The position numbers were made by a program, and so were the translations under genes. A stretch of 64,000 bases of DNA from Candidatus Poseidoniaceae archaeon (lineage in GTDB: Archaea; Thermoplasmatota; Poseidoniia; Poseidoniales; Poseidoniaceae), in contig CAXPMI010000031.1 of assembly GCA_964218365.1 (NCBI GenBank), positions 9,940 to 73,939 of the forward strand, in the 5' to 3' direction. Every line of letters starts with the position of its first letter. Position 1 is the first letter of the stretch. Shown here in pieces: positions 1,473 through 62,562 of the stretch. Under the pieces are notes generated by a model. It was not told the DNA's origin. It did no database searches and was given only the letters and a program-made list of their open reading frames with translations.

Positions 1473-1579
1473 GTCATTCCCTGTTGGGGGTGCCTTCGCG
1501 GAACTCTCATGAACCTTACTTCGCGAAAATACGGTCTTCAATAGGCAAACTGTTCATCAAATAGAACGCCTCCGGGTGG

Positions 1580-3094: not shown

Positions 3095-3098
3095 TAAT

Positions 3099-7678: not shown

Positions 7679-7791
7679 TGCGCCGCAACGAATTGCATTA
7701 GTATATACCATTTTGTTTCGATACGCACAGAGAAACCGCAACACGTAGCATAAATGCGCTCCATTATTATGTATGAAGCCCTACAAAGCAT

Positions 7792-23690: not shown

Positions 23691-23765
23691 GGAGGTTCCT
23701 GTTTGACTTCTAGTTGTCAATGTTAGCATAATAAATTCATTGAGTAAGTAGTTCTGGGAGGTAAT

Positions 23766-32146: not shown

Positions 32147-32166
32147 AGACCATCAACCAATATTCC

Positions 32167-32176
32167 GGTATAATTC
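32167..32176 (-). promoter_or_regulatory. Candidate TATA-like element (minus-strand gaattatacc) about 24 nt upstream of the ATG of the 1785-aa gene, implying a leaderless or short-leader mRNA.
   Basis: AT-rich hexamer at the archaeal TATA-box distance, judged by eye only. Confidence 0.25.
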
Positions 32177-32214
32177 ATAGGTCTTGAATTAACCGGCGAA
32201 AGGTCACAATCAGA

Positions 32215-32236
32215 AATCCCCCCTTTAGGGGGGAAT
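32215..32236 (-). terminator. Hairpin CCCCCC-TTTA-GGGGGG immediately after the stop of the 1895-aa gene.
   Basis: A 6-bp G/C stem plus A/T flanks that extend the pairing. Confidence 0.45.
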
Positions 32237-32243
32237 TCTGGTC

Positions 32244-42074: not shown

Positions 42075-42541
42075 CAAATAGATTGGTCGATGACGAATCT
42101 GGAGCTAGCACTGAACTTGGCTACATTTTCACATTCATGCTCGGAGTATTGTTCCTCTCAATGTTTAGTGTCTGGGCGTTTGGCTTAGAAACGTCAACTA
42201 GGGAGAACTGGAATAGAACTGCTGTAGATGTTAACATGGCAGATATTGCTGCTGCGGTTGAAAGGGCCGATATGGCAAGCAGAGAAGACTCTAGTGTGAG
42301 TTACGCAGAAGTAGTGACATGGAGATTAACCGAAGCAGACGAGACCGACTTTGTTCTCACCTTGGATGACACTGGACTATCACTCGATCATAGCGAGAAT
42401 GAACTGGACAGAGAAGTTTCGATATCTGGAACGGGATATGGTACATATGATGGAAGAATCAATCTTTCAGGGACTGCAGAGATTTGGGTCGTTTACCACG
42501 AAGGTGTGACCTATCTCTCAACAACTAGACCAGATTTCTGA
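42071..42541 (+). CDS. Archaeal type IV pilin-like protein, small (156 aa).
   Basis: N-terminus MTNRLVDDESGASTELGYIFTFMLGVLFLSMF (DDxxGxSTE plus hydrophobic). Its start overlaps the upstream stop. Confidence 0.6.
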   Translation: MTNRLVDDESGASTELGYIFTFMLGVLFLSMFSVWAFGLETSTRENWNRTAVDVNMADIAAAVERADMASREDSSVSYAEVVTWRLTEADETDFVLTLDDTGLSLDHSENELDREVSISGTGYGTYDGRINLSGTAEIWVVYHEGVTYLSTTRPDF

Positions 42542-49416: not shown

Positions 49417-49523
49417 AATACACCCTCGGCATGTTGTCCAAATACTGGACCGCCTTAACACATTGGGATAGATTTCAATTGAAAAGTATCAATTATCAAG
49501 GAAAATATCATCTTTTTTGCCCC

Positions 49524-49611: not shown

Positions 49612-50829
49612 TTAGCAGGCAACTGAGGATTGTATTTGATTCAACCATGCTTTACCATCAATAGCTCCATAGCCCCACCGTGAATCATGTTCTATTCCTT
49701 CCTCAAGTGGAATCGCCGAGTTCATCAACGCTGTTTTTACCTGAGCAAGACATTCTTCATTTGAATTCATTAAGTCCGGTTCTGCTTCCAAAATCAGGGC
49801 TAAAATTCCTGAAACGAAAACCGTTGCGTCGCTAGTACCTGTGGAGGAATAGTATTCATCATCGAAAGCAGTGGATATGATCGATACTCCGGGTGCGGAT
49901 ATCTCTGGTTTCTTGTTTGGATTTTGGTAAACTTCTGCACTCTCATCGCTAGTGTAGCCAAGGGAAGACCCCTCCCAAATATCTCCATTAACATCCAAAG
50001 CACCAACTGAAATTACTCCAGGCACATCTGATGGAGTAGCAACTCTACCATCGTCATCTGGCCCACCGTCATTTCCGGCTGCTGCAACAACATAAACGCC
50101 ATTTGCAATCGCTTGTTTGACTGCATTTGAGGTTGGGCCATCGGTGGTTGCATTAGGATCACTCTCTCCACCTAAAGATAGAGAAATAATGTGGGCTTGG
50201 AATGTTTTCCAACACCATTCAATGGCACTAGCAACAACATTCTGGTCACCGCTATTTCCACCCTCCCCATCATCTCCAAGGGCTGCCGCCATTCCAAGAG
50301 TAACTCCTGGAGCTACCCCCTTGAGGTATCCATCAGAAACCAAAATACCTGCCATCATGGTTCCGTGAGCAAGAGAACCTTGGTCTGCAATTTGATTAGA
50401 ACCCGTGATGAAATCCTTGAATATCAAATCAATCGATTTCAAATCTGAATGGCTAGGATCAATACCTGTGTCAACCATACAGACTCGTATTCCATCCCCG
50501 GTATAGCCTAGTGACTGTAATTCTCTTGCACCAGAGTCCTCAAAGGCCCACTCTGATTTTGAAGGTGGTATTTCTATGAAAAGAAGTTGACTTCTCCAAA
50601 CAGCCCACATAATCAAAATCAAAACTAAGAAAAATCCAGTGCTAATAAGTCGCTGTCGTAGTCGCTTTGGTCTAGAGACAACAGGAACAGGAGTTGGTGC
50701 CCAACCCAAAACCTCACTTCGCCAACCTTCTTGGTGTCCAATAGTTGCTGAGTCAGCTGCAGATAATATCCGATAGTCAGACGGTTCGGGAATGAACTCA
50801 ACATTTCCGAGTTCTTTCTCTTCCCACAT
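49612..50829 (-). CDS. Membrane-anchored subtilisin-like serine protease (peptidase S8).
   Basis: Catalytic triad contexts VCMVDTGID (Asp), HGTMMAGIL (His) and GTSDATVFVSG (Ser). An N-terminal cytoplasmic segment is followed by the TM LISTGFFLVLILIMWAVW (type II anchor). Confidence 0.85.
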   Translation of the reverse strand: MWEEKELGNVEFIPEPSDYRILSAADSATIGHQEGWRSEVLGWAPTPVPVVSRPKRLRQRLISTGFFLVLILIMWAVWRSQLLFIEIPPSKSEWAFEDSGARELQSLGYTGDGIRVCMVDTGIDPSHSDLKSIDLIFKDFITGSNQIADQGSLAHGTMMAGILVSDGYLKGVAPGVTLGMAAALGDDGEGGNSGDQNVVASAIEWCWKTFQAHIISLSLGGESDPNATTDGPTSNAVKQAIANGVYVVAAAGNDGGPDDDGRVATPSDVPGVISVGALDVNGDIWEGSSLGYTSDESAEVYQNPNKKPEISAPGVSIISTAFDDEYYSSTGTSDATVFVSGILALILEAEPDLMNSNEECLAQVKTALMNSAIPLEEGIEHDSRWGYGAIDGKAWLNQIQSSVAC

Positions 50830-50869: not shown

Positions 50870-50902
50870 AAACCAACAGGATTCTGCCTCTATAATGGAG
50901 GC
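50870..50902 (-). terminator. 12-bp perfect-stem hairpin AGGATTCTGCCT-ctataatgg-AGGCAGAATCCT just downstream of the 3179-aa gene stop.
   Basis: Inverted repeat seen directly. It lies between the giant gene and the subtilase start. Confidence 0.5.
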
Positions 50903-50920
50903 AGAATCCTTGTTGGAATA

Positions 50921-53900
50921 TCAGAATCGTCCAGAAGACCCTCTGCGTGCAGTCTTGTATCCACCGTACATTACCAATCCAGTTAGAAGGATAATTACTA
51001 CAACCAACCAATCAGACTCACCATCTTCATCTGCTATGTTCGAGAACTTGATGGTGATGATTGCCGATTCATCACTGTCATCGTGTGTTGGTGTTCCAAT
51101 TACATCCAAAGTAACCTTCAATCTAGCGTCACCTGGTGGCAGGTCAGAGTAATCGAATGATGCATATGCAACACCATTTGCTGGAACTGTGATAGTTACT
51201 TGCTGTTGTGGATACACAGTGTTACCAAGTTCGTCTGCCGCTAAGTAAACGATTACATCACCCGCTGTAAGGAATCCATCGTTCCTGATTGGAATGATGA
51301 ACTGTCCATCAGCGTTTGCCTTAGCATCAGCATTTCTTGGTTCTACTCCACCTTCATCAATCACTAATTTAGCCACAGAGATAATTGCGGTTGTCGACTG
51401 AGATTGCTCAGCGAAGTCGCCTTCGCTATTTGCAGTGAATGAAACCGGGCATTCATCTTCAGCTGCTGCATCTGCAGGTGCATAAATTGTGAATGATTGG
51501 CTTCTCTCACTGCTTGCTGCCACAGTTACATTAGAAATTGGTGGTGCGACAGTCCATCCTTCACAAGAGAGTCCAGATTCAACTGTAACGGTATCATCAC
51601 CGTTACCGTTGTTAACGATTCTTAGGGTTACGATTGTTTCATCCCCGACTCCAACACCGATTGATTCAGGTGCATCGACCAATGAGATGTTGTACTGCTG
51701 TGGAATGAATACTCTTGCACTTGCTTCGCTCGCTCCAGCGTCTGCAGTAAATCTCATGTTAACAGCATGTCCGTCATCATAGGTCTGTGATTGATTCTTG
51801 AGTGGTAGAGTTACTCTAACGTCTACTTCAGTGTACAAGAGTTGGTCTGAATCTGAATTGTTCATTCCAATGCCCATTGCTACGTCCATTGCTTCGGTCC
51901 AATCGCCTGTTGAGTTCTTGTACTCAATAGTCCAGAACTCCGCATCCTGTGTTACGCCAGTTGAACCAGATGCAGTGAAAGTATCGGAGATCTCCGTACC
52001 TTCGTATGTAAGGCTCAACTTCATTGTGATTACCTTGTATCCATTACCGTCTTCCTTAGCAGTTAGGTCTGTTAGGTCAGATGGGTCAAAGTCTGCTGTT
52101 TCTGCATCAACCGAGATGATCTCAACAACAAGGTCTGAGTTAACACGGCGAGTGAACTCTAACAAGCGGTCCTCAGCAGTGTCTTGTATTACTTCCACAG
52201 TTAATCCTGCGTTGTACTCCATTGCTAGGTTTAGGTCGTGCTGAATTGATTCGAATTCACTGTCAAATGAAACACTACCTGCAGGTAGAATCATCTCGAT
52301 TTCACCATTTGAATCGAATGGAACTTCCCATGCAACTCCATCTCCAAGGTCTATTTCGACGTCAACTCCCTCTGAAACATCTCCTGCGTGGAATTCAACG
52401 CTATCGATTGTTAGCCATGTTGTAGAGATGGATATCAATCCACCTTTCTCCATTACTAGGTCAAGAGTTGCTCCTTCTTGAACTGAGGCCTCTAGCAATC
52501 CAATTGCTATTCCGCCACCGTTTTCATCAACATCGGTTCCTTCAACCACAACAATCCAGTTGCCCGGTTCGATGCTTGCATTCCATGATAATACGTCATT
52601 ATCAAACACTACATCCTGAATAACGATAGCATCACGGACAATTCCGCTAGCAGGGTAAAGGGTAATTGTGGCTCCATCTAATCTGGTAGTCGCACCCAAA
52701 ATGTCAGTTACATTTCCTGATACTTCTACAAGTCCTGCGCTCATTTCGAAATCACGACTTTCGTGTGTGTCGTTGACAACGTAGAAGCTTGTGTTTCCAT
52801 CTTCGTAGGTCACAGAATCAAATCCAGCCTTCTCGGCAACTACTGTGTAGTTTTCACGGATTGGAACGAATAGTTTCCATGTACCATCTTCATCGGTTGT
52901 TAAATTTTCAGAGAATCCACTCTCGGAACTGATTGAAACATTGACAGAATCTATTCCTTCACCAGAGTTAGGGATATCATCCTCATTTAGATCCCAGAAG
53001 ATTTTTCCACCAACAAGAACATGCTTGTCAACATATACAGCACCTACATCCCATGTGTTACCGACTACTGTATCGGCTGAGTTGTAGATTCCAACATCTA
53101 GAGACCACATCTCAAGGGTATCTGTTCTGTTAAGCATCAAAGTCCAGTTGCCTGGCATCAGAACTTCGTTGATGATTCCTTCATTGTCAGAAGGACCTAG
53201 GCTTACATTACCTAGTCCATCAAGGCTTACAGCGGTGATCCTTGTAGCGGTGATGTTTGAATCTGTTAGTGATTCTTTCAATTGCATTGTAACGTTCAAT
53301 GCTGTCTTGGTCTTCCAATTCAAATCGGTAACTGCTCCATCGAGAATAAGGACATCTCTGAAGATTTCAGTCTCATTGCTGTCGGCTATGTAGTCTGAAA
53401 CTTCTACAAACCATTCGCCTGCGGCAATGTATTCTGCAAACGTACCATTCTCATCGGTTGCAAGTGGATAGAAGTCATCACCTGCTTCGTTTCTCAACCA
53501 AACTGTTGAATTCTCAAGTGGGAATCCACTTTCCATTAGTACGGTACCTGCAACAAGATATTCAGGTGTTATCGCTATGTCAACAGGGTCTTCTATTGTA
53601 TCTAGTCCAATGTCAATTGAAGGAAGACCTGGTGCAAACTTCCTGAAGTCGCTTGCGTTTTCGTCTCTTGGGTCATCATCCATCATGGTGATGATGTAAT
53701 TACCAACAGACAACTCGACTGTAAGTTCACCAGTGTTTGCATCGTACATGTCTTCAGTAACTGTGACATCAATACCGAACTCATTGATCGATGTGATATT
53801 GAATGTAGGTGAAACTGCGGTACCGTTTTCCCATGCAAGGTCGTCATTTGTATCCAAGAATATCCTCAAAGTAAGAGAAACATTAGCCGGTGCTGCTACA

Positions 53901-56900
53901 ACTTCTACTCTGTTAGTATCGTTCTCAGTTGAAACAGATACTGGTTGAACGTTCATGTCAGAGTTGGATGCGGAAATTGTGTATGTTCCGTTTGCAAGGT
54001 ACATCAAGAAATTTCCAGCATCGTCAATCTCATCTCTCCACTCAAGTCCATTTTCGTCAGTTGCAATGATTTCTGCACCACTTGCTCCTGTGATTCCATC
54101 GCCCCAAGTAATTCCGCTTCCATTTACCGGAGAATCTCTCAGCCAAACAGTTCCTTGTAGGGCATTAGACTCTTCTAGGATTAGGTCTCTATCAACATCA
54201 TCCGATGCATCTGTAACCAGCATACCTGCTGTCAAGACATTGCTTGTTAATCCAGCAAAGCTTTGCACATTGATGTGGAACTCAACACCTGCTGGCATTC
54301 TTATGGAATATGTTCCGTTTTGTGAGTCAGTGGTAGTCGCAAGTATGATATTACCAGAGCGTGCTTCAACATTCACGTTGGTCGCAGGTTGTCTCATCTC
54401 CATCGGGATATCTGAGGCGTTGTTATACTGAGGATCTTGCAATAGATCGTTTAGACCTGGTATAGCCCAAACCGTTCCATTAACCCATGCGCTTACCGCA
54501 TAAGTCAAATCCAATTCAACATCGTCTTCACCAACTTCAACTTCATGCCATAAAACGAAGTTCTCATCGGTTTCATCTGAAATGACCCAGTCGCCCATGA
54601 ATATCTCTGCATGAACGAAACCGGTTTCATCCGATTGTGCGGTCAAAGTGATATCGTTGAGGTCTGTTCCTAGGGAACTAGAGAAAGTCAATGTTCTGTT
54701 AGCCAAGTCTATACCAGACCCACCGTCATTTAGTTGAATTGTTACATCACGCATTGTAGGAACAGATACTGCTAGAGTGACATTCTGTGAATCAAGACCT
54801 ACGCTGAAATTGTATTCGACTTCATACCAGTCATCATCGTCAATATCCACTCTCCACTGATAGTCACCAGTAGCAAGAGGCCCATAACTGAAGTTACCGT
54901 TTTCATCTGTTTCAATCAGTACCGGTTCTGAACCTTCTTCCAATCCAAAGTCAACTAGTTCGATAGTCTCATTCGGAAGTGGTGTTGGGTCGCCATTTGT
55001 GAAGTAATCAGCAAACAGTGTATCTTCGAAAATTGAACCTGGCATCTTCATCTCCAAGTCAGTAGTAGGTTCAACTCCTACCTCGACTGGGTCAGGGAGA
55101 AGTATTTCTCTACCGTTTTCCATTACTGCAATCATGTTGTAAGTTCCCGGCATTAATCCAGTCTTGTAGAATGAACCTGGCGCCACCATTGGCCCAGAGA
55201 AGGTTCCCTCACCAATGAATAGACCTGTACCATTAACGCTTCCAATTCCTTCGTAAACGCCAGTACCTTCGAATGTCTCACCATCAAGGAACTTGACAAC
55301 GATTACTTCTCCATCAGCGGTCATTCTACCGTTTGCATCAACTGTGCCCTCGAATAGGTAAGTGTCTGCTTCGGAGGTTAAACAAGCGATGTGGGTTGAG
55401 TTAATTGTTTCACCATCTACTGTTTCTTCGAATGTAGGTAGTGATTCGATTGTTTCGTCACCCACAGTCTCTTCTACACATGCAGGAGCGTCATAATCAA
55501 TCCATTCTGCGACAATTGAACCTGCCCCAGTAAATGTTGCGTTAGCTGTGTATGAGCGGCCATCTAAGACATTGCGAGTGTAATTTCCAGTAAATCCGTA
55601 AACAATTCCAGTGTTTCCTTGAGTATCGAAAGTTCCGTTTTCAGTGAACATGACTTCACCAGTTCCTTGAATAATTCTTGTATCACCTTCGTCGGTTGTG
55701 AAAGAACCACTTGTTGTTGAGACAGAGTAATTGCTGGCCATACCCCAAACGTTGCGTAGGATAAAGTCCATTCCGTCTAGAGCATCACCTTCGAAAGACT
55801 CGTGTCCTGTCCATGTAACTGTACCAGAGACTCCACTTGAATCGACTGCAATGTCAAAGTCTGTGTCGATAGAAGTACCAAACTCTTGGTCAGCTTGTGC
55901 TCCTGTGATGTTTTGTGTCACCTCACCCATCCAGGACATGTTTGCGACCTTACCTAGAAGAGCAGTGATCAAGTTGGTTTCACGGTTATCGTTCGTGTTA
56001 ACAGTCAAGTCGCCCAAACCAGCAGCGTATTCGCCAGTCTGGATTGTATCCTTAGCCTCTGCATCGTCAAATACACCTGCATATGCTGAAACTCTAATCT
56101 TTCCAGCAGGTACGGTGTAAGACCATTCGCCGTTTTCATCAGCATCTGTGTAACCGATTGGAACCCAGTATGTATCTTCGTCAAGGTCAGTTTCATCTTC
56201 ACCGGAGAATGCATCTCTCTCGATTAGAATTCTGACATTTGGAAGAGGTGTGCCATCATCTGACATACTTACTGTACCTCCGACTTCAACACCAGGGTAG
56301 TACTTCAGAATCTTGACTAGTGTGTTTGCAGCACCCAACATGTCGTCTGGGTTTTCTGCATTGTACCAGTTTGCAATCACAAAGTGGTTCATCATTGCAC
56401 CCGGTAGTGGAACTGCGTTAGTCATTATCGAATTAGGAGTACCAGACTGACCGAAGTGTTGCCCTGGTTGCTCTGTTGTAGCGAATCCAAGAGTGGATGC
56501 TCCATATCCTACGTATGCACGCGCGAGCATTGTTTCGAAGAACGCAGGGGTGTGGTCGATCCTAATGTCAACTAGGCTTAACGGGTCGAATGTTGCCCCA
56601 GACTGTTGGTTGAGAACGTCCTTTCTCATTTCTTCATCGAATTCTTCTCTTGTCATTTCATCATTGAACTGTCCACGAGTAGTCATGTAAACTTCATCCA
56701 TGAAGGTGTCGAAATCTTGGCCTGAAAGAATTGTTGGTGCTCCGAAAATTCCAGTTGGGCTACCACCGCTGTATTCAGAACTGTACAATCCTGCCCTCGG
56801 ATACAGTCTGTTATCAATAGCAAAGTACCTGATTTCGTGGTTTCTAGTGATTGTTTCACCTGGTGCACCTTCGTAATCTTGGACAGTATATACTGCGTTG

Positions 56901-59900
56901 TTCGATAAGTCGGTGTATAGTGCATGGATTTCTTCGCTGTCCAATGCAGAAGTTAGCATCTGCGTGACTAGAGCAATTCCAGCGTTCTTGCGGTGAATAT
57001 TTGTGCTAACAGAGTCATATTCCTCTACCAAATCAGAGGTATACCAATAGTCCCCGAAGATGTAGTGAGTTGTATTTGACTCTGTATCTGAAGCCGCACG
57101 AATATTGTTGTTGAATACTGGTTGTGCTTCACCCTCGTTTGCGAAAGCGAAGTCACCTACACAATCTGCAGAGGTAGGACAAGGTATAGCTTCTCCATCT
57201 TCGAATACCATGTAGTATGTGTTGACATCCTTTCCAAATACACCATCTTCAATCAGTCTACCTTCAGCCATTACGACATCGCCGTTAACCTGTGTGACCT
57301 TGAACGAACGGTCTACGACACCATCTGCATCCATGTTTGTCTGGATTGTGACAAATTCAGATTTCTGCTCGTCGGTCAAATGGTTGGAAAGTGTGTTCAG
57401 GAATGAAGATGTGTGAGCACTTTCTCCTGTTCTTGCATCATTGTAAGCAAGGTCAGCACTTGACAATCTCCAGATGAACATAGCAACTAGGTCATCTTGG
57501 CTTCTTGCAAGTAGCATGTTACCTGACGCAGGTATACCTGACTGGAAGTTATCAGAAACGGATGGGTGGTCACCGGTTTCTAGAGCTTGGAAACCATAAT
57601 CCCACCAAGATACAAACGCTGGTCGGTCAGAATATGATTGGTCTGTGTCTTGCTTTGCAAGCCAGTCGTATGCCAAGTTCCATCCACGATCGTTGTAACC
57701 TGAACCAAATGATCCAAGGTACCAGCGAGAATTCTCGTCATATACACTATCATCCAAGATTGAGAAACCAAAGTCATTCCATCTCAGGATATCAGGAGCG
57801 ATATTGAAAATTGTCTCATCCATTTCTGCCTCATGCCTGGAAGAACCTGGCATAGCAGCGTCGATACCGTATGTTGCATGCTGTCCAATCAGCATGATTA
57901 GAACCAGACCGATTGCACTGAATTGTGGTGTTCTCCAAACTGCCTTTCTAGCATTGGAAATTCTTTCACCAGGTGTCCTGATTCCCATGCGCCTCCAAGA
58001 GCGTGCCATGTTACTAGCGCCGCTTGCTCCCCAGAGTGTCACAATTCCCCAAGCACCCATAATAGCCATTGCAGGTGCAGCGTTGAACAGGAATCTTCCT
58101 GCGGACCATGCCATGTATGCTGCGACGATGACCCACATTCCTAGAACGAGTTTTGTCTGGCTCTTCTTTACTATTCCATCCCACAGAGCAATAATTCCCA
58201 TAACGATAGCTAGTACGAAGACAATCGGTCCAAAGGAGGCGAAGAGTTGACCTCTACTAGGGGCGCTCGCTTCAGCAATTGTTCCGAAAATCTTGTTCTT
58301 AGTGAAGTATCCAGAACCAGTTGTCAATATATTCCAAGCATTGGATTGGTCGGTGATTTGTAGTAGATATAGAACCACTCCAAACACGATACCTCCTGTT
58401 AGGAGAGAACCTAATACTAGCAGCCAAGGCTTGTCTCTAAATCCTGTTGTGATCCATGCGATGGCAACTGTAAACAATGTGATGAACAATAATGGTGTCA
58501 AACCAGTGCTGTTCAAGACAAGGTTGATTTGTGGGTGTGCATAGAATGGCATTACCATCACGTAAATTGTTCCGAGCATCATTATGTTAAGGGCAGACAG
58601 GATTGTGCTGTCCTTTCTTCTGAACATGTTCATTGCAACTTGAATAAAGTAAGCAAGGAATATGATTGCTGGACCGTATACGAATCCTTTCCAACCAAGT
58701 GCTACGATGCTGAAGCATACACCAGCAGCAATTGCATTTGCAGAAGCTTTTCTGCGCTGCTTTAGAACCTCTGCCATAGCCTTGATTATTCCAGACGGAG
58801 ATGCATTTGTGTGCCTTGAAAGTCTTTCATCTCCACCCGCTTTGACTGCACGCAGATAGAACATAAACGCAGCAGTTAGGAAGAGAAGGACGTACGAATC
58901 GTGGTCAGCCATAGCCCATGTTGATTTTTGGACGTGTGTTGGCATGAATGCGATTAACCACGCTGCGATTACTCCTGCACCCTTTCCGAAATGGTCCTTT
59001 GCAATTGCCGCCATTGGGAATACGATTAGTGCACCAAAGATTGCAGGTAGTGCAAGCATTGCATACCATACGGACTCGTCCGAGGACAATCCAAGGTTTG
59101 TAAGCAGCATAGCGCCCATTGCCATTGACCAAGAGAACAATGGCGGTCGAGGATTGATTCCTCCAACCGGGTAGTTTCTGTCTGCATCGAAAATCAAGTG
59201 AGCATTTTCTGCGATAACGTAGTCCACTACTCTCTTCATGTACCATGGGTCAGAACCTCCTGTAAGGTCCCAAGATTCTAGGCCTGCAGAATTCATTGAA
59301 GGTACAAAGTACCATTGAACTCTGATTGCAAGTGCAACAAGGAAAGCCATGAAGGTCATGATTCCTGCCCAGTGGTTAGACCAGAATACCCTGGCTTGGC
59401 TAGGCTCGTGTAGTTCTCTGTTCATCCAACCGCCATAATCTTCGTGTGTTGCGAACCAGTAGATTAGAACACCAATGAAGAAGGTGATACCGAACCAAAT
59501 CCAAACTGCCCAAGTTCCAGACAAATTGTCATTAGACCAGTGTCCGGATTCAAACAGCGAAGAAACGATGTAAAGAGTCCACATTGAACCGATAAAGATC
59601 GCACGGGTGTACCATCGCTCTGCACACATCCATGCACAGGTTAGTGCTACAAGTCCGGTGAAAGCAGCAGGCCAGAAACCAATGTATCCGTGATAGTTTT
59701 CTTCAGACCATATTGCTAGGATGTCAAGGTCACTTAGAGTGTTGAAGTAGTACATGATAGCAATGTGGGTTGCTGCCCATACTGCAAGAGCGACCTGAAG
59801 CGGAAGCGTTGCGTTATTCCATCCACCATCGTGTGGCTTGATGTATCCAAACCATCCCTTGTCAGTGGCTGGTGTTAGAACACCGCGTAGCAGTACCGCT

Positions 59901-60460
59901 GCCAGTAATCCAAGGATGACGAAGATTGCCAGAGTGTTGAAGAACACGAATCCAATTGCTTCTTGCCAAGCGGCAGTTCTGATGTACTCCTGTCCATCAA
60001 GGGTGAACAACTTGGTTTGGTTGTCAGCGAAGTTTCCGGCTGCAATCATTGCAGCCCAAAGTCCTGTGAAAGAGAATACAAGGACAGTGTTCCACTCATG
60101 ACGTCCGTTGGAATCAAGTAAATATCCGCCAAACATCACAATGAAGAAAATCAAACCTAGGAAGTTTGAATCAGTGAACATAGCCACTCCTTCTGCCAGA
60201 ATCAGTGATACAACAAGGGTGACGAGGGAAAGTGCTGCGCCTTGTTGAATGATGTTGCTTTCTTTTATGACACGAGGTGCCATTCCGAGAACCGCTGCAA
60301 TTGCAACTGCAGCAAATGGTTCCATTCCTTCTACATCAAGGACTAGACCAAAGTCTAGACCAAAGTCAGCCAATATTGCAACCAAAATTGCTAGGGGCGC
60401 AATAAGCATCCCGAGCATTGGATTGGTTGCTCCAATTTTTTCGTCGTTTTGTGTCGACAT
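50921..60460 (-). CDS. aglB: Giant oligosaccharyltransferase (STT3/AglB family, 3179 aa). It has a roughly 360-aa N-terminal extra polytopic membrane domain (about 10 TM), the STT3 core, and a roughly 2200-aa extracellular array of beta-sandwich (Ig/CarboxypepD_reg-like) domains ending in a C-terminal TM anchor.
   Basis: WWDYG motif (SWWDYGFQALE). TIXE-type EL5 motif (GTIAEASAPS). EL1 acidic motifs SDPWYMKR and FDADRNYPVG. About 23 TM helices before WWDYG. Long acidic/Thr-rich repeats follow. C-terminus WLVVVIILLTGLVMYGGYKTARR. Confidence 0.8.
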   Translation of the reverse strand: MSTQNDEKIGATNPMLGMLIAPLAILVAILADFGLDFGLVLDVEGMEPFAAVAIAAVLGMAPRVIKESNIIQQGAALSLVTLVVSLILAEGVAMFTDSNFLGLIFFIVMFGGYLLDSNGRHEWNTVLVFSFTGLWAAMIAAGNFADNQTKLFTLDGQEYIRTAAWQEAIGFVFFNTLAIFVILGLLAAVLLRGVLTPATDKGWFGYIKPHDGGWNNATLPLQVALAVWAATHIAIMYYFNTLSDLDILAIWSEENYHGYIGFWPAAFTGLVALTCAWMCAERWYTRAIFIGSMWTLYIVSSLFESGHWSNDNLSGTWAVWIWFGITFFIGVLIYWFATHEDYGGWMNRELHEPSQARVFWSNHWAGIMTFMAFLVALAIRVQWYFVPSMNSAGLESWDLTGGSDPWYMKRVVDYVIAENAHLIFDADRNYPVGGINPRPPLFSWSMAMGAMLLTNLGLSSDESVWYAMLALPAIFGALIVFPMAAIAKDHFGKGAGVIAAWLIAFMPTHVQKSTWAMADHDSYVLLFLTAAFMFYLRAVKAGGDERLSRHTNASPSGIIKAMAEVLKQRRKASANAIAAGVCFSIVALGWKGFVYGPAIIFLAYFIQVAMNMFRRKDSTILSALNIMMLGTIYVMVMPFYAHPQINLVLNSTGLTPLLFITLFTVAIAWITTGFRDKPWLLVLGSLLTGGIVFGVVLYLLQITDQSNAWNILTTGSGYFTKNKIFGTIAEASAPSRGQLFASFGPIVFVLAIVMGIIALWDGIVKKSQTKLVLGMWVIVAAYMAWSAGRFLFNAAPAMAIMGAWGIVTLWGASGASNMARSWRRMGIRTPGERISNARKAVWRTPQFSAIGLVLIMLIGQHATYGIDAAMPGSSRHEAEMDETIFNIAPDILRWNDFGFSILDDSVYDENSRWYLGSFGSGYNDRGWNLAYDWLAKQDTDQSYSDRPAFVSWWDYGFQALETGDHPSVSDNFQSGIPASGNMLLARSQDDLVAMFIWRLSSADLAYNDARTGESAHTSSFLNTLSNHLTDEQKSEFVTIQTNMDADGVVDRSFKVTQVNGDVVMAEGRLIEDGVFGKDVNTYYMVFEDGEAIPCPTSADCVGDFAFANEGEAQPVFNNNIRAASDTESNTTHYIFGDYWYTSDLVEEYDSVSTNIHRKNAGIALVTQMLTSALDSEEIHALYTDLSNNAVYTVQDYEGAPGETITRNHEIRYFAIDNRLYPRAGLYSSEYSGGSPTGIFGAPTILSGQDFDTFMDEVYMTTRGQFNDEMTREEFDEEMRKDVLNQQSGATFDPLSLVDIRIDHTPAFFETMLARAYVGYGASTLGFATTEQPGQHFGQSGTPNSIMTNAVPLPGAMMNHFVIANWYNAENPDDMLGAANTLVKILKYYPGVEVGGTVSMSDDGTPLPNVRILIERDAFSGEDETDLDEDTYWVPIGYTDADENGEWSYTVPAGKIRVSAYAGVFDDAEAKDTIQTGEYAAGLGDLTVNTNDNRETNLITALLGKVANMSWMGEVTQNITGAQADQEFGTSIDTDFDIAVDSSGVSGTVTWTGHESFEGDALDGMDFILRNVWGMASNYSVSTTSGSFTTDEGDTRIIQGTGEVMFTENGTFDTQGNTGIVYGFTGNYTRNVLDGRSYTANATFTGAGSIVAEWIDYDAPACVEETVGDETIESLPTFEETVDGETINSTHIACLTSEADTYLFEGTVDANGRMTADGEVIVVKFLDGETFEGTGVYEGIGSVNGTGLFIGEGTFSGPMVAPGSFYKTGLMPGTYNMIAVMENGREILLPDPVEVGVEPTTDLEMKMPGSIFEDTLFADYFTNGDPTPLPNETIELVDFGLEEGSEPVLIETDENGNFSYGPLATGDYQWRVDIDDDDWYEVEYNFSVGLDSQNVTLAVSVPTMRDVTIQLNDGGSGIDLANRTLTFSSSLGTDLNDITLTAQSDETGFVHAEIFMGDWVISDETDENFVLWHEVEVGEDDVELDLTYAVSAWVNGTVWAIPGLNDLLQDPQYNNASDIPMEMRQPATNVNVEARSGNIILATTTDSQNGTYSIRMPAGVEFHINVQSFAGLTSNVLTAGMLVTDASDDVDRDLILEESNALQGTVWLRDSPVNGSGITWGDGITGASGAEIIATDENGLEWRDEIDDAGNFLMYLANGTYTISASNSDMNVQPVSVSTENDTNRVEVVAAPANVSLTLRIFLDTNDDLAWENGTAVSPTFNITSINEFGIDVTVTEDMYDANTGELTVELSVGNYIITMMDDDPRDENASDFRKFAPGLPSIDIGLDTIEDPVDIAITPEYLVAGTVLMESGFPLENSTVWLRNEAGDDFYPLATDENGTFAEYIAAGEWFVEVSDYIADSNETEIFRDVLILDGAVTDLNWKTKTALNVTMQLKESLTDSNITATRITAVSLDGLGNVSLGPSDNEGIINEVLMPGNWTLMLNRTDTLEMWSLDVGIYNSADTVVGNTWDVGAVYVDKHVLVGGKIFWDLNEDDIPNSGEGIDSVNVSISSESGFSENLTTDEDGTWKLFVPIRENYTVVAEKAGFDSVTYEDGNTSFYVVNDTHESRDFEMSAGLVEVSGNVTDILGATTRLDGATITLYPASGIVRDAIVIQDVVFDNDVLSWNASIEPGNWIVVVEGTDVDENGGGIAIGLLEASVQEGATLDLVMEKGGLISISTTWLTIDSVEFHAGDVSEGVDVEIDLGDGVAWEVPFDSNGEIEMILPAGSVSFDSEFESIQHDLNLAMEYNAGLTVEVIQDTAEDRLLEFTRRVNSDLVVEIISVDAETADFDPSDLTDLTAKEDGNGYKVITMKLSLTYEGTEISDTFTASGSTGVTQDAEFWTIEYKNSTGDWTEAMDVAMGIGMNNSDSDQLLYTEVDVRVTLPLKNQSQTYDDGHAVNMRFTADAGASEASARVFIPQQYNISLVDAPESIGVGVGDETIVTLRIVNNGNGDDTVTVESGLSCEGWTVAPPISNVTVAASSERSQSFTIYAPADAAAEDECPVSFTANSEGDFAEQSQSTTAIISVAKLVIDEGGVEPRNADAKANADGQFIIPIRNDGFLTAGDVIVYLAADELGNTVYPQQQVTITVPANGVAYASFDYSDLPPGDARLKVTLDVIGTPTHDDSDESAIITIKFSNIADEDGESDWLVVVIILLTGLVMYGGYKTARRGSSGRF

Positions 60461-60610: not shown

Positions 60611-60626
60611 ATGCCTATAGGGCTCT
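60611..60626 (-). terminator. Degenerate copy (ATGCCTATAGGGCTCT) of the GAGCCCTATAGGGCTC palindrome at the purD stop.
   Basis: One-base deletion relative to the 424-439 palindrome, at the same position relative to a stop codon. Confidence 0.3.
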
Positions 60627-61865
60627 GTGACCAATATCACGGCGATAGTGAGAGCCGGCCAACTCGATTTGCTCAATTAGGGAGTAAGCCTTCGCAGAGG
60701 CTTCTTGCAAATCATTACCAATACCTGTACAAGATAATACTCTTCCACCGTTTGAAAGAAGAACTCCATCTTCCATCTTTGTGCCAGCATGATTTACCCA
60801 AGAATCATCTCCTGAATCTGGTAGATTTCTAATTTTCCTACCCTTCTCAACTGATCCTGGGTAGTTTTCTGCTGCAAGAACAACCGTCATTGCATGTTTG
60901 TTGTGGAATTCAACATTTAAATTCGATAATTTGTCTACCGAGGCAGCGTGTAGTACATCTCCCAAATCTGTTGCGATTAGAGGGATTGTGATTTGGCATT
61001 CTGGGTCTCCAAATCTGACATTGAATTCTACAACATATGGGTCCCCGTGCTCATCGATCATCAGCCCTACGTAGAGCACTCCACGGTATGGAATTCTGCG
61101 AGAAGAAAGGGCTTTGTGCATTGGCTCAACGATTCTCTTCACGGTTTTTTCCTTGACTGAATCTGTGTAAACTGGAGCAGGAGCATAAGCACCCATTCCA
61201 CCAGTATTTCGGCCTTTATCACCTTCAAACTCACGCTTGTGGTCTTGGCTAGCCGGCAAACAAACGTACCCACTTCCGTCCATAACAACAAGCATACTTG
61301 CTTCTTCGCCAGGAAGGAAGGCCTCTAACAGTACCTTGCCGTCTGTTCTGATTGAATCTGTAATGAATTCCTTAGCTTCGTCTCGATCTGTTGTGACCAC
61401 AACTCCCTTTCCACCAGCAAGAACGTCTCTCTTGATTACCCATGGATTGTCGGAAAAGTCGTCCAATGCTGAATCAACATCGCTATTCTTGTCCAAAACG
61501 TGGAAGTCAGCAGTTGGAACTCCATTTTCTTTCATCACTTGCTTTGCATGCAGTTTACTCCCCTCAAGTCTAGCAAGGGCAGCGACTGGACCGAAGCAAG
61601 GAATATCCATCTTTGCCAATTTGTCAGAAAGACCTTCACACAGTGGAGCCTCAGGACCGGCAACGACAAAATCAACCTGTAACTGGAAAGCAAGATGAAC
61701 TAAATCTGAAACTTGGTTAAACGAGTGGTTAGTTGCGATTTCTGCGGTTCCAGCATTTCCAGGAGCACAGTGAATTTCACTGATGGATTGACTCTTTGCA
61801 AGACCTAGACAAAGGGCGTGTTCCCTGCCCCCTCCACCGACAACAAGGACCGTCATACCTGCCAT
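60615..61865 (-). CDS. purD: Phosphoribosylamine--glycine ligase (GAR synthetase).
   Basis: MTVLVVGGGGREHALCLGLAKS N-terminus and an ATP-grasp core. The track ORF start at 61967 would overlap carS; the conserved start maps near 61865. Confidence 0.88.
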   Translation of the reverse strand: MAGMTVLVVGGGGREHALCLGLAKSQSISEIHCAPGNAGTAEIATNHSFNQVSDLVHLAFQLQVDFVVAGPEAPLCEGLSDKLAKMDIPCFGPVAALARLEGSKLHAKQVMKENGVPTADFHVLDKNSDVDSALDDFSDNPWVIKRDVLAGGKGVVVTTDRDEAKEFITDSIRTDGKVLLEAFLPGEEASMLVVMDGSGYVCLPASQDHKREFEGDKGRNTGGMGAYAPAPVYTDSVKEKTVKRIVEPMHKALSSRRIPYRGVLYVGLMIDEHGDPYVVEFNVRFGDPECQITIPLIATDLGDVLHAASVDKLSNLNVEFHNKHAMTVVLAAENYPGSVEKGRKIRNLPDSGDDSWVNHAGTKMEDGVLLSNGGRVLSCTGIGNDLQEASAKAYSLIEQIELAGSHYRRDIGHRAL

Positions 61866-61953
61866 GTTGCTTCCATAATAGTGAGGCTCATAAGCCCATC
61901 GCGAGGGGATTTTATCCACTGAGTTCAAAGGCCTAATCGTACAGCATGATATC

Positions 61954-62562
61954 ATGGAAGATTTCAACGTCTTCGAAATGATGTTGTTTACGCTTTGGAT
62001 TTACTTGCCCGGGTTTTTGGTCAATACCTTTGCAATGATGTGGGGTAAGTGGCTACCAAAAACTGGTTATGGCCCTTGGCCTATCGACGGAGGAAGGTTA
62101 CACAAAGATGGCAATCGACTACTTGGAGACGGTAAGACCTGGAATGGATTGATTGGAGGCTCCCTAACCAGTGGACTGCTTTGCTACCTCATGACAATGG
62201 TTCCGGAGAATTGGGTTTTCATTTCACCAACCGAAGCAGCGACAGGATGGGCAGCAGGTGCATTCGTAATGGGCACCTTCCTCGGATTTACGAGCCTGGT
62301 TGGAGATTCAACTGGTTCTTATTTCAAGAGACGCAAGGGCATGAAGAGAGAAGGTGATGTATCCAGTAAAGCACCTCTTCTTGACACACTACCATTTGCA
62401 ATCTCAGTCTTCGTCTTTGGTCAAATCTTCCTGACTGGTTCTGCACACGGTGATAGAGATTTGATTCTTCCAATGGTCTTGTTGGTAGTAATCACACCGG
62501 TTTTACACAGGTCATTCAATCTAATCGGATACAAGATTGGGTGGAAAGATGTGCCATATTGA
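61954..62562 (+). CDS. carS: CDP-archaeol synthase (CDP-2,3-bis-O-geranylgeranyl-sn-glycerol synthase).
   Basis: About 200-aa polytopic membrane protein with LGDGKTWNGLIGG (CarS GKTW motif) and a conserved DxxD-like region. Confidence 0.65.
   Translation: MEDFNVFEMMLFTLWIYLPGFLVNTFAMMWGKWLPKTGYGPWPIDGGRLHKDGNRLLGDGKTWNGLIGGSLTSGLLCYLMTMVPENWVFISPTEAATGWAAGAFVMGTFLGFTSLVGDSTGSYFKRRKGMKREGDVSSKAPLLDTLPFAISVFVFGQIFLTGSAHGDRDLILPMVLLVVITPVLHRSFNLIGYKIGWKDVPY

What the first reader, a model, noticed from the sequence alone, without database searches (positions are those of the whole stretch)
50921..60460. 3179-aa STT3/AglB oligosaccharyltransferase fused to an extra 10-TM N-terminal domain and a roughly 2200-aa extracellular domain array
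Canonical archaeal AglB proteins are about 600-1000 aa (13 TM plus a periplasmic domain containing WWDYG). Here WWDYG sits near residue 930, preceded by the normal STT3 core (SDPWYMKR / FDADRNYPVG in EL1, GTIAEA = TIXE in EL5). Before that core there are about ten additional predicted TM helices (residues 15-340) that are not part of the STT3 fold. After WWDYG the ORF continues uninterrupted for about 2200 aa of repetitive beta-rich, acidic, Thr/Val/Gly-rich sequence and ends in a single TM plus basic tail. An oligosaccharyltransferase anchored at both ends and carrying an adhesin-sized ectodomain is, as far as I can judge, not a described architecture. It could couple N-glycosylation to a surface-layer or cell-cell contact structure. 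The N-terminal 10-TM module may be a transporter or flippase-like domain fused to the OST.
Basis: partly seen in the sequence, partly recalled or inferred. Interest (0 to 1): 0.85.

Follow-up and report, generated by a model that had tools for sequence, protein, structure and literature searches.

The report
Giant double-anchored archaeal N-glycosylation enzyme
Marine Group II archaea (Poseidoniales), among the commonest archaea in the surface ocean, make their protein N-glycosylation enzyme as a 3,180-residue, 24-helix membrane protein; it carries an unrecognisable 10-helix front module and a long sugar-site-rich outer arm tied back to the membrane, a conserved design I found described in no paper.

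Summary
The ORF at 50921..60460 (-) is real and encodes a 3179-aa AglB/STT3 oligosaccharyltransferase. D404, D519-H-D521, TIAE727-730, R789 and WWDYG952 are intact.

It is not an assembly artefact or a one-off fusion. The identical protein occurs on 9 contigs. 56 species-level Poseidoniales genomes carry colinear 3143-3217-aa orthologues, and 447 species genomes have a relative. Divergent MGIIb versions are 3146-3228 aa.

The N-terminal 354 residues form a confidently modelled 10-helix bundle (pLDDT 82). It has no Pfam or NCBIfam match and no convincing structural match. A profile search of 1.84 billion proteins finds it only in this family. The flippase/transporter idea therefore has no support.

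After an expanded OST ectodomain comes about 1,700 aa of diverged beta-sandwich domains, at least 8 of them transthyretin-like. This region is not sequence-repetitive. It holds 43 N-glycosylation sequons against 17 expected. A TM helix, a basic tail and a C-terminal Phe present in every intact orthologue read follow it.

A membrane-anchored S8 subtilase lies directly downstream in 62 of 65 loci.

Best reading: a lineage-standard active OST with a built-in accessory membrane domain and a glycosylated envelope arm. It is a new variant of a known kind, and I found no description of it in the searchable literature.

The parts
50921..60460 (-). Complete gene for the 3179-aa giant AglB/STT3 (stop codon included)
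   Evidence: ORF list and translation. The identical protein is in NCBI as 'STT3 domain-containing protein [Ca. Poseidoniaceae archaeon]' on 9 contigs. 56 colinear intact orthologues of 3143-3217 aa exist.
59399..60460 (-). N-terminal extension, residues 1-354. It is a 10-TM helical bundle (helices 14-35, 43-67, 76-96, 99-117, 121-147, 162-190, 216-241, 262-280, 284-304, 318-338) and is specific to this lineage.
   Evidence: AF2 model with pLDDT 82.3 and pTM 0.82. No Pfam or NCBIfam hit. Found only in this family among 1.84e9 representative proteins. No structural homologue. F105, F173, E281, W283, W294, G306 and W322 are invariant across 25 sequences down to 18% identity.
57821..59398 (-). 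STT3 membrane core, residues ~355-880 with about 13 TM helices. Catalytic residues are D404 (GGSDPWY), D519-H520-D521, TIAE 727-730 and R789.
   Evidence: Pfam PF02516 at E = 4.7e-16 and TIGR04154-like match. Residue-by-residue alignment to AfAglB 3WAJ pairs D47/D404, D161-H163/D519-D521, E360/E730 and R426/R789. D404, D519, H520 and D521 are invariant in 21 homologues.
56246..57820 (-). Enlarged external OST domain, residues ~881-1405. It holds WWDYG at 952-956 and a candidate DK-type motif (IRYFAIDNRLYP) near 1216.
   Evidence: PDB C-terminal AglB domains 3VGP and 3VU0 match residues 926-994. There is a weak AglB_core-like Pfam hit. Homologues of this region occur only in Poseidoniales/Thermoplasmatota. 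It is sequon-poor, with 1 sequon against 5 expected.
51041..56245 (-). Array of diverged beta-sandwich domains, residues ~1406-3140. At least 8 are transthyretin/CarboxypepD_reg-like, at 1406-1479, 1808-1898, 1916-1975, 2011-2093, 2118-2187, 2304-2379, 2485-2573 and 2681-2763. A Gly/Thr-rich segment spans ~1480-1800, and an Ig-like (FixG_C / choice-of-anchor-T-like) region spans 2841-3024.
   Evidence: Pfam PF13620 scores 75.5 bits against a cutoff of 32.3. Segment scans are and the iterative HMM. NF041740 matches at 38.8 bits, below its cutoff. There are 43 N-X-S/T sequons against 17.0 +/- 3.8 in shuffles, orthologues carry 35-56, and 15 positions are kept in >=70% of distant orthologues.
50924..51040 (-). 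C-terminal anchor, residues 3141-3179: an acidic stretch, a TM helix (3146-3171), a basic cytoplasmic tail and a terminal Phe.
   Evidence: Hydropathy. Every intact orthologous ORF read ends in TM + K/R-rich tail + RF, KF or PF, including five MGIIb-type and unassigned divergent versions and four MGIIa-like ones. It has no PGF motif and no NCBIfam sorting-signal hit.
49612..50829 (-). Conserved downstream partner gene: a 405-aa S8 subtilase with an N-terminal TM anchor (about residues 63-78) and an external catalytic domain.
   Evidence: Pfam Peptidase_S8 at E = 2.8e-41. Sequence. It lies directly downstream on the same strand (gap 30-200 nt) in 62 of 65 loci; the other 3 are loci where the AglB ORF is broken.
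60615..61967 (-). Upstream neighbour purD (phosphoribosylglycinamide synthetase). It is a synteny marker and probably has no functional link to the AglB gene.
   Evidence: Pfam GARS_N/A/C. It is directly upstream in 73 of 73 loci and also in the divergent locus L083.

Best explanation
This gene encodes the Poseidoniales version of AglB, the enzyme that transfers a lipid-linked glycan to Asn in N-X-S/T sequons on the outer face of the cell membrane.

Shown:
- The catalytic core, a 13-TM-type STT3 domain plus the WWDYG ectodomain, is intact and under strong constraint.
- It is permanently fused to two lineage-specific additions.

Inferred: the core is an active OST, probably the principal or only one in these cells.

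The first addition is a 10-helix N-terminal membrane domain with its N-terminus in the cytoplasm and no detectable relatives. I infer that it works as a built-in accessory subunit. It would pack beside the STT3 helices to stabilise or position the enzyme, or to dock partners such as the translocon, Agl enzymes or lipid-carrier handling. Its most conserved charged residues lie on the cytoplasmic face.

The second addition is a ~1,700-aa acidic string of beta-sandwich domains that returns to the membrane through a C-terminal TM helix. The protein therefore forms a closed arm or arch outside the cell. That arm is far richer in sequons than chance predicts, and many of the sites are conserved. I infer that it is itself heavily N-glycosylated, by its own or neighbouring catalytic domains, and serves as a glycosylated envelope or spacer element.

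The membrane-anchored S8 subtilase encoded immediately downstream throughout the order may process the arm. That link rests on synteny alone.
For: Reality of the gene:
- The ORF is confirmed, and the identical sequence lies on 9 contigs.
- 447 GTDB species genomes hold a relative. Among the 80 loci retrieved from them, 56 ORFs were complete and X-free, all 3143-3217 aa and colinear over their whole length.
- Divergent members with 18-25% identity in the N-extension are 3146-3228 aa and have the same layout. One of their clusters carries an MGIIb (Thalassarchaeaceae) label.

OST identity:
- Pfam STT3 scores above threshold.
- The alignment to AfAglB 3WAJ matches D47, D161/H163, E360 and R426.
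- The first two acidic motifs are invariant among 21 homologues.
- An oligosaccharyltransferase gene is reported as transcribed in MGIIb (PMC9723583).

N-extension:
- 10 helices at pLDDT 82.
- Conserved down to 18% identity, with invariant E281/W283/W294/G306/W322.
- Always attached to the giant protein.
- The even helix count and the charge distribution fit an N-in topology that feeds correctly into STT3 TM1.

Arm:
- PF13620 and related hits, with at least 8 domains.
- 43 sequons against 17.0 +/- 3.8 expected, 35-56 in orthologues, and 15 of 43 positions kept in >=70% of distant orthologues. The catalytic ectodomain, by contrast, is sequon-poor.
- The enrichment exceeds that of the other secreted proteins in the window.

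Anchor and neighbour:
- The C-terminal TM, basic tail and terminal Phe are present in every intact orthologue read.
- The S8 gene is adjacent in 62 of 65 loci.
Against: - No biochemical or structural data exist for any member. Poseidoniales are uncultured (my own knowledge).
- The role of the N-extension is inferred only from its position and conservation. The 1-1000 model was too poor in the STT3 part (pLDDT 54) to show any interface.
- Sequon enrichment does not prove glycosylation, and the sugar donor and glycan are unknown.
- I could not check whole genomes for a second, canonical AglB.
- The candidate DK-type motif is atypical (DNRL) and was aligned only by eye.
- The subtilase link is pure synteny. 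purD is just as tightly syntenic and is surely unrelated in function.
Confidence: 0.6

Rival explanations
1. The N-terminal 10-TM module is a transporter. In this reading it is a flippase or scramblase for the lipid-linked oligosaccharide, or a recycler of the dolichol phosphate carrier, fused to the OST so that substrate is delivered directly to the active site.
For: - It is a polytopic domain permanently fused upstream of the LLO-using enzyme.
- Conserved charged residues R120/E122, R192 and E281 sit near the cytoplasmic membrane surface.
- From my own knowledge, the archaeal LLO flippase has not been firmly identified.
Against: - No similarity to MOP/Wzx/RFT1, MFS, ABC, GtrA or MprF-type families in Pfam or NCBIfam.
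- No such relatives among 1.84e9 proteins or in PDB profile searches.
- Foldseek finds nothing.
- No inverted internal repeat typical of carriers is detectable.
- The UbiA Asp-rich motifs are absent from the conserved columns.
Confidence: 0.12
2. The gene encodes a polyprotein-like precursor. The ~1,700-aa array is the real product of interest, a major cell-surface (S-layer-like) glycoprotein. It is glycosylated in cis by the attached OST and then cut free by the co-encoded membrane-anchored S8 subtilase, staying on the cell through its own C-terminal TM anchor.
For: - The array has its own C-terminal anchor.
- Sequon enrichment is extreme and many sites are conserved.
- It is acidic, like many archaeal surface proteins (the comparison is my own knowledge).
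- The externally facing S8 protease is directly downstream in 62 of 65 loci.
- A related Thermoplasmata AglB (P0034) has a short array with no anchor, which shows that array and anchor are separable modules.
Against: - No conserved cleavage site was identified.
- The array length is held within about 2% across the order. That fits a ruler or arch tethered at both ends at least as well as a free coat protein.
- Identity in the array (24-49% in distant orthologues) is higher than I would expect for an exposed coat protein under viral pressure (my own knowledge).
- The synteny with S8 may be incidental, as the synteny with purD surely is.
Confidence: 0.2
3. The long ORF is an artefact: a chimeric assembly, or neighbouring genes joined by sequencing error.
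For: In two long-read, pilon-polished contigs the region is called as 5-7 separate genes. Many database entries are fragments of 600-1660 aa.
Against: - Those long-read contigs also split purD and the S8 gene. Their pieces are colinear with the window protein over all 3179 residues with simple frame switches, so they reflect indel errors.
- 56 short-read MAGs from different species have intact 3143-3217-aa ORFs.
- The identical sequence lies on 9 contigs.
- The fragments lie on short contigs or at contig ends.
Confidence: 0.01
4. The STT3 core is a catalytically dead scaffold, and the protein is purely a structural or adhesive envelope component.
For: The extra modules make up about two thirds of the protein. 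The DK/MI-type motif that shapes the +2 Ser/Thr pocket could not be identified with confidence.
Against: - All metal-binding and LLO-binding residues and WWDYG are present. D404 and D519-H520-D521 are invariant in the 21-sequence alignment; the later motifs appear in the alignment consensus and in the sequences read, but invariance was not computed for them.
- The STT3 TM region is one of the two most conserved parts of the protein, at 57-99% identity; in distant orthologues the OST ectodomain scores about the same.
- No other AglB-type hit from Poseidoniales appeared in the homologue search.
- Secreted proteins in the window are sequon-enriched, which implies an active pathway.
Confidence: 0.04

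Closest known systems
Canonical archaeal AglB, e.g. Archaeoglobus fulgidus AglB-L (PDB 3WAJ/5GMY, 875-residue chains)
   Same: The STT3/GT-C membrane core aligns from TM1 onward. The D (GGxDPWY), DxH/DxD, TIXE, Arg and WWDYG positions are matched. Pfam STT3 scores above threshold. Isolated AglB C-terminal domains (3VGP, 3VU0) match the WWDYG region.
   Different: The window protein is 3.6 times longer. It has 354 extra residues (10 TM helices) before TM1 and a ~290-residue insertion between WWDYG and the candidate DK-type motif. It also carries a ~1,700-aa domain array and a second, C-terminal membrane anchor. Sequence similarity to the solved enzymes is low (E = 1e-7).
Thermoplasmata AglB with a C-terminal CarboxypepD_reg array (P0034 = cluster of RLF42479.1, 1288 aa)
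   Same: It has the STT3 core and, by eye, the same enlarged ectodomain landmarks (DNFQ.GIP after WWDYG, IRY(F/Y)..D, MxHF...KYY.G). Transthyretin-like CarboxypepD_reg/SpaA/NOMO-type domains follow directly.
   Different: It has no N-terminal 10-TM extension (STT3 TM1 starts near residue 30) and only a few beta-sandwich domains. It has no C-terminal TM anchor and ends ...DILLAREE. Identity to the window protein is 27%. It shows that the array idea exists outside Poseidoniales, whereas the giant double-anchored form does not.
TIGR04154 'archaeo_STT3', the archaeosortase-A-system-associated oligosaccharyltransferase (haloarchaeal/methanogen type)
   Same: It is the best NCBIfam model for residues 370-988 (E = 4.3e-54). 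The window also encodes a protein whose C-terminus reads like a PGF-CTERM sorting signal (read from the sequence, no model match), so archaeosortase sorting may exist in this organism.
   Different: The score of 184 bits is far below the 450-bit cutoff, so the protein is not a member. The model covers only the core, and the giant's own C-terminus has no PGF motif.
Eukaryotic OST complex accessory subunits, and the NOMO subunit of the BOS complex (analogy only, from my own knowledge)
   Same: In eukaryotes the STT3 catalytic subunit works with extra membrane subunits, which is conceptually like a built-in N-extension. NOMO is a string of transthyretin/Ig-like luminal domains ending in one TM helix. 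Weak sub-threshold Pfam hits to NOMO1-like domains occur in the array.
   Different: No homology is demonstrated: the NOMO hits are below the gathering score, and the N-extension matches no OST subunit. Here everything is one polypeptide on a cell surface rather than a multi-subunit ER complex.

Membership tests
STT3/AglB oligosaccharyltransferase (Pfam PF02516, GT-C) | Significant match to the STT3 family model | tested here: met
   PF02516 scores 59.7 bits against a gathering score of 24.5, over residues 403-800. AfAglB 3WAJ matches at E = 1.1e-7 over residues ~375-806.
STT3/AglB oligosaccharyltransferase (Pfam PF02516, GT-C) | First acidic catalytic residue in external loop 1 (AfAglB D47) | tested here: met
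   GGSDPWY at 401-407 aligns to GGNDPWY of 3WAJ. G401-R410 are invariant in 21 homologues.
STT3/AglB oligosaccharyltransferase (Pfam PF02516, GT-C) | Second metal-binding motif DxD/DxH (AfAglB D161, H163) | tested here: met
   D519-H520-D521 align to D161-H162-H163 and are invariant.
STT3/AglB oligosaccharyltransferase (Pfam PF02516, GT-C) | TIXE/SVSE motif in external loop 5 (AfAglB E360) | tested here: met
   TIAE at 727-730 aligns to TIAE of 3WAJ. It is present in the alignment consensus.
STT3/AglB oligosaccharyltransferase (Pfam PF02516, GT-C) | Conserved Arg that contacts the lipid-linked donor phosphate (AfAglB R426) | tested here: met
   R789 in AGRFLFN aligns to NRFAYY of 3WAJ.
STT3/AglB oligosaccharyltransferase (Pfam PF02516, GT-C) | WWDYG motif in the external C-terminal domain | tested here: met
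   WWDYG at 952-956. It aligns to 3WAJ 550-554 and to 3VGP/3VU0.
STT3/AglB oligosaccharyltransferase (Pfam PF02516, GT-C) | DK or MI motif forming the +2 Ser/Thr pocket | tested here: inconclusive
   The only candidate is IRYFAIDNRLYP (D1216), which matches IRYYGVEGYDKQ of P0034 by eye. There is no K or I at the expected spacing, and no structural model of this part was made.
STT3/AglB oligosaccharyltransferase (Pfam PF02516, GT-C) | 13-TM topology of the core | tested here: inconclusive
   Hydropathy and the low-confidence 1-1000 model give about 13 helices between residues 355 and 867. pLDDT in this part is mostly below 60.
STT3/AglB oligosaccharyltransferase (Pfam PF02516, GT-C) | Oligosaccharyltransferase activity | not testable with these tools
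   This needs an enzyme assay or glycoproteomics.
TIGR04154 archaeo_STT3 (archaeosortase A system-associated) | Score at or above the curated cutoff | tested here: not met
   184.1 bits against a cutoff of 450.
Lipid-linked-oligosaccharide flippases and polytopic transporters (MOP/Wzx/RFT1, MFS, ABC, MprF-type), tested for the N-extension | Sequence or profile similarity to any such family | tested here: not met
   No Pfam hit at E <= 1 and no NCBIfam hit. The profile search of 1.84e9 proteins gives 99 hits, all giants of this family or fragments. The PDB profile search gives nothing below E = 0.17.
Lipid-linked-oligosaccharide flippases and polytopic transporters (MOP/Wzx/RFT1, MFS, ABC, MprF-type), tested for the N-extension | Shared fold, or the internal inverted repeat typical of carriers | tested here: not met
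CarboxypepD_reg / transthyretin-like beta-sandwich domains (PF13620), tested for the array | Match above the gathering score | tested here: met
   75.5 bits against 32.3 for the whole protein. Segment scores are 45.2 and 37.8 bits. Iterative HMM finds 8 copies.
PGF-CTERM / archaeosortase sorting signal, tested for the C-terminus | PGF-type tripeptide before the TM helix, or a match to the sorting-signal model | tested here: not met
   The C-terminus reads ...DEDGESDWLVVVIILLTGLVMYGGYKTARRGSSGRF with no PGF. There is no NCBIfam sorting-domain hit at E <= 0.1. The fasciclin protein at 5696..7744 ends ...TPGFLGLTAILATLGAVLFARKRQDTEL, which contains the PGF tripeptide, although no NCBIfam sorting-signal model matched it either.
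Choice-of-anchor T (NF041740) | Score at or above the cutoff | tested here: not met
   38.8 bits against a cutoff of 70, over residues 2841-3024. This is only domain-level resemblance.

The most novel reading that the evidence does not exclude
The protein is a self-contained envelope-building machine. In this reading the N-terminal 10-helix domain is a new kind of lipid-carrier handling module, a flippase/scramblase or dolichol-phosphate recycler with a fold not seen in solved structures, that feeds the fused OST. The OST glycosylates its own 1,700-aa arm, and that arm, tethered at both ends, forms the main glycoprotein coat or spacer of Marine Group II cells. This would name a candidate for the still-unidentified archaeal LLO flippase and explain the unknown cell envelope of one of the ocean's most abundant archaeal groups.
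Probability: 0.1. Interest if true: 0.88.

Novelty: new variant of a known kind. Interest (0 to 1): 0.64.

Why it matters
- **Single-polypeptide design.** AglB/STT3 is the central enzyme of N-glycosylation, and in archaea it is regarded as a single-subunit enzyme of roughly 600-1,000 residues. Here an entire, ecologically dominant order has fixed a form more than three times that size. Length is held within about 2% across family-level divergence, which implies real mechanical or spatial function for the extra parts.
- **A possibly new membrane fold.** The N-terminal domain is a confidently predicted 10-helix membrane fold with no relatives outside this protein. It is a candidate new membrane-protein family sitting next to a lipid-linked-glycan active site.
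- **A handle on the cell surface.** The sequon-laden, double-anchored arm offers a concrete handle on the unknown cell surface of uncultured Marine Group II archaea. This bears on virus attachment, particle adhesion and grazing.
- **Annotation.** Databases currently label these proteins 'hypothetical' or 'STT3 domain-containing', and many entries are fragments. The family could be annotated properly.

Tried and rejected
**Assembly artefact: rejected.** Long-read contigs L001 and L002 split the gene. tblastn shows colinear frame-switching, and purD and S8 are also split there. Short-read MAGs have intact ORFs.

**N-extension as transporter or flippase: no support.**
- Pfam and NCBIfam
- The 1.84e9-protein profile search
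- Internal-repeat test

**'Repetitive' ectodomain: rejected.** There are no DNA tandem repeats, and the domains are highly diverged from each other.

**C-terminus as a PGF-CTERM/archaeosortase signal: rejected**.

**Things that led nowhere.**
- The 1-1000 AF2 model was meant to show how the N-extension packs on STT3. The STT3 part was too low in confidence (pLDDT 54).
- The afdb50 fold library was unavailable.
- Eight literature searches found no description of a giant AglB in Marine Group II or Poseidoniales. The library lacks most subscription papers, for example the 2020 Eichler-lab AglB survey, which I know of but could not read.
- The homologue search with residues 950-1480 returned only fragments from the same lineage.


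Full report
**1. The observation**

The window holds one uninterrupted ORF at 50921..60460 on the minus strand, with an ATG start, encoding 3179 aa. Neighbouring genes are archaeal: CDP-archaeol synthase, archaeal type IV pilin-like proteins and purD.

Pfam places STT3 at residues 403-800, scoring 59.7 bits against a cutoff of 24.5. CarboxypepD_reg domains lie in the C-terminal half. NCBIfam's archaeal STT3 model covers residues 370-988 but scores below its cutoff.

- GGSDPWY at 401
- FDADRNYPVG at 423
- ADHD at 518
- TIAE at 727
- WWDYG at 952 rather than about 930

Hydropathy finds many helices before residue 340 and a single C-terminal TM at 3146-3171, followed by a basic tail.

**2. Is the ORF real?**

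The exact 3179-aa sequence is already public as 'STT3 domain-containing protein [Candidatus Poseidoniaceae archaeon]'. It was seen on 9 contigs of up to 340 kb, in a 90%-identity cluster of 96 members that are mostly 3179-3181 aa.

A scan of one genome per GTDB species found 447 genomes with a relative that passed the tblastn check. In all but four of the 80 loci retrieved, the match covers nearly the whole 1-1000 query. Of the 82 loci then held (these 80 plus L001 and L002), 68 carried a stop-to-stop ORF. 56 of those passed the filters (over 3100 aa, no X) and trim to 3143-3217 aa. They align colinearly over their entire length.

Identity of these orthologues to the window protein, by region:

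| Region | Identity |
|---|---|
| N-extension | 40-97% |
| STT3 membrane core | 57-99% |
| OST ectodomain | 58-95% |
| Array | 24-95% |

Two long-read, pilon-polished contigs split the region into several called genes. tblastn shows the pieces are colinear with the window protein and differ only by frame switches. The same contigs also split purD and the S8 protease, so these are indel errors. They also explain why many database entries are 600-1660-aa fragments. The fusion is real and ancient.

**3. The OST core**

Alignment to the solved A. fulgidus AglB (3WAJ) starts at residue ~375, which corresponds to AfAglB residue 19 in TM1. It pairs the catalytic residues as follows:

| AfAglB | Window protein |
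|---|---|
| D47 | D404 |
| D161/H163 | D519/D521 |
| E360 | E730 |
| R426 | R789 |
| WWDYG 550 | WWDYG 952 |

D404 and D519-H520-D521 are invariant across 21 homologues down to 33% identity. The later motifs appear in the alignment consensus. The STT3 region is one of the two most conserved parts of the protein.

I could not confirm a DK/MI motif. The only candidate is IRYFAIDNRLYP near residue 1216. It lies ~290 residues after WWDYG, so the external OST domain is much enlarged.

By eye, parts of that enlarged domain recur in P0034, a 1288-aa Thermoplasmata AglB in the same cluster as RLF42479.1. P0034 also continues into a few CarboxypepD_reg domains but has neither the N-extension nor a C-terminal anchor.

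**4. The N-terminal extension**

Residues 1-354 precede STT3 TM1. An AF2 model built on 25 diverse sequences is confident (pLDDT 82.3, pTM 0.82) and shows ten TM helices plus a small external beta-hairpin. The same helices appear in the independent 1-1000 model.

The even helix count and the loop charges (R63, R120, R192, E281-R282 and R357 on one side, acidic loops on the other) give an N-in topology that joins STT3 TM1 correctly.

Tests of the transporter/flippase idea all came back negative:
- No Pfam or NCBIfam match.
- A profile search of 1.84 billion representative proteins returned 99 hits. All are either 3146-3228-aa giants or truncated/short pieces.
- A profile search of PDB sequences found nothing.
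- Foldseek against PDB found nothing: best E = 0.83, TM-score <= 0.26.
- No internal repeat is detectable.
- It is not a copy of the STT3 membrane domain.

The domain is nevertheless under clear constraint. F105, F173, E281, W283, W294, G306 and W322 are invariant, and R120, E122, G133, R192 and G193 nearly so, at 18-25% overall identity. The transporter/flippase reading therefore has no positive support. 'Lineage-specific accessory membrane domain of unknown fold class' is what the data show.

**5. The external arm**

Residues ~1406-3140 are acidic, with 300 D+E against 64 K+R. They are not repetitive at the sequence level: there are no DNA tandem repeats, and an HMM seeded on one domain needs 3-12 iterations to find the others.

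That procedure delimits at least eight transthyretin/CarboxypepD_reg-like domains. Two further segments stand out:
- a Gly/Thr-rich stretch at ~1480-1800
- an Ig-like region at 2841-3024, resembling FixG_C and choice-of-anchor T below threshold

The arm carries 43 N-X-S/T sequons, against 17.0 +/- 3.8 in composition-preserving shuffles. The catalytic ectodomain has 1 against 5 expected. Orthologues carry 35-56 sequons in the arm, and 15 of the 43 positions are retained in at least 70% of the 45 more distant orthologues. No other protein in the window is as enriched.

The protein ends with a TM helix, a K/R-rich tail and a terminal Phe (RF, KF or PF) in every intact orthologue read, including the divergent clade. 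The tail has no PGF motif. Another protein in the window, at 5696..7744, ends in a PGF-containing hydrophobic tail followed by basic residues.

**6. Context**

purD lies directly upstream in 73 of 73 loci. A 405-aa S8 subtilase lies directly downstream on the same strand in 62 of 65 loci; the 3 exceptions are loci with a broken AglB ORF. The subtilase has an N-terminal TM anchor, so its catalytic domain faces outward.

A perfect 13-bp hairpin sits between the two genes at 50878-50910. Hairpins of different sequence recur at this position in orthologous loci, with mean MFE -17.1 against -12.8 kcal/mol for shuffles.

A published metatranscriptome study lists an oligosaccharyltransferase among genes enriched when an MGIIb genus is active (PMC9723583). 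That paper says nothing about architecture.

**7. Mechanism**

Shown:
- an intact, conserved OST core
- a conserved 10-TM N-extension unique to this family
- a conserved-length, sequon-rich domain arm
- a second anchor
- a conserved protease neighbour

Inferred:
- The protein is the working, probably principal, AglB of Poseidoniales.
- The N-extension acts as a built-in accessory subunit beside the STT3 helices.
- The arm, tethered at both ends, forms a glycosylated arch or spacer on the cell surface and is itself a substrate.
- The subtilase may process it.

Rivals, with my confidence in each:
- flippase-type N-extension: 0.12
- precursor of a cleaved coat glycoprotein: 0.20
- dead-enzyme scaffold: 0.04
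- assembly artefact: 0.01

**8. Novelty and score**

The enzyme family is known, and beta-sandwich tails on AglB exist elsewhere (P0034). What is new:
- the order-wide 24-TM, double-anchored, ~3,180-aa form
- the orphan 10-TM domain
- the sequon-loaded arm
- the fixed protease neighbour

I found no description of these features in eight full-text searches. The library omits most subscription journals, so a prior mention cannot be excluded.

I rate it a new variant of a known kind, with interest 0.64. A specialist in archaeal glycosylation or marine archaea would be surprised, and the object is well defined. However, the functions of the additions are inferred only, and the most exciting reading has little direct support.

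Noticed in passing
window 49612-50829 (-): An S8 subtilase with an N-terminal TM anchor and an outward-facing catalytic domain sits 60-100 nt downstream of the giant AglB. It is there in 62 of 65 orthologous loci (45-94% identity). Its best NCBIfam resemblance is to mycosin-type proteases, below the cutoff.
   Followed up: partly
window 50878-50910 (-), between the AglB stop and the S8 start: A perfect 13-bp stem with a 7-nt loop lies right after the stop codon. Orthologous loci have hairpins of different sequence at the same place, with mean MFE -17.1 against -12.8 kcal/mol for shuffles. It may be a terminator, attenuator or processing site.
   Followed up: partly
window 50924-50960 (-); C-termini of L003-L082 and P0036-P0057: Every intact orthologue read ends in a terminal Phe (…RF, …KF or …PF) after the TM helix and basic tail, even where the rest of the tail has diverged. 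I know of no archaeal sorting or interaction signal of this form.
   Followed up: no
window 5696-7744 (-): A 682-aa protein has three fasciclin domains and a plastocyanin/halocyanin-like copper domain. Its C-terminus (…NNTPGFLGLTAILATLGAVLFARKRQDTEL) reads like a PGF-CTERM archaeosortase signal, but no NCBIfam sorting-signal model matched it.
   Followed up: partly
window 26789-37931 (-) and 45121-49461 (-): Three further very large, probably secreted (N-terminal hydrophobic stretch, read by eye) proteins of 1785, 1895 and 1446 aa have almost no Pfam matches (a weak TSP3 repeat and one Big_7 domain). The 1895-aa protein is also sequon-enriched, with 30 against 17.6 expected. A relative of the 1446-aa protein is found in 63 related loci (position not checked).
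   Followed up: no
window 38992-42541 (+): A cluster of three genes encodes archaeal type IV pilin-like N-termini (Pilin_N, DUF7289, DUF7266). A STAND NTPase-TPR protein follows at 42542-45073 (-).
   Followed up: no
L001 and L002 (ENA pilon-polished long-read contigs), whole loci: These 0.67 and 0.86 Mb contigs carry frequent frameshifts. The AglB gene is called as 5-7 genes, and purD and the S8 gene are also split. Such assemblies seed protein databases with many fragment 'proteins' of this family.
   Followed up: yes
L058 (NZEQ01000036.1): A 72-kb contig labelled 'Verrucomicrobiales bacterium isolate ARS100' carries an intact 3186-aa orthologue of this archaeal gene with the S8 neighbour. 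The contig is almost certainly mis-binned.
   Followed up: no
window 22722-23729 (-): A family-2 glycosyltransferase of 335 aa is the only other obvious glycosylation gene in the window. It lies 27 kb from the AglB gene, so there is no agl gene cluster around the OST here.
   Followed up: no
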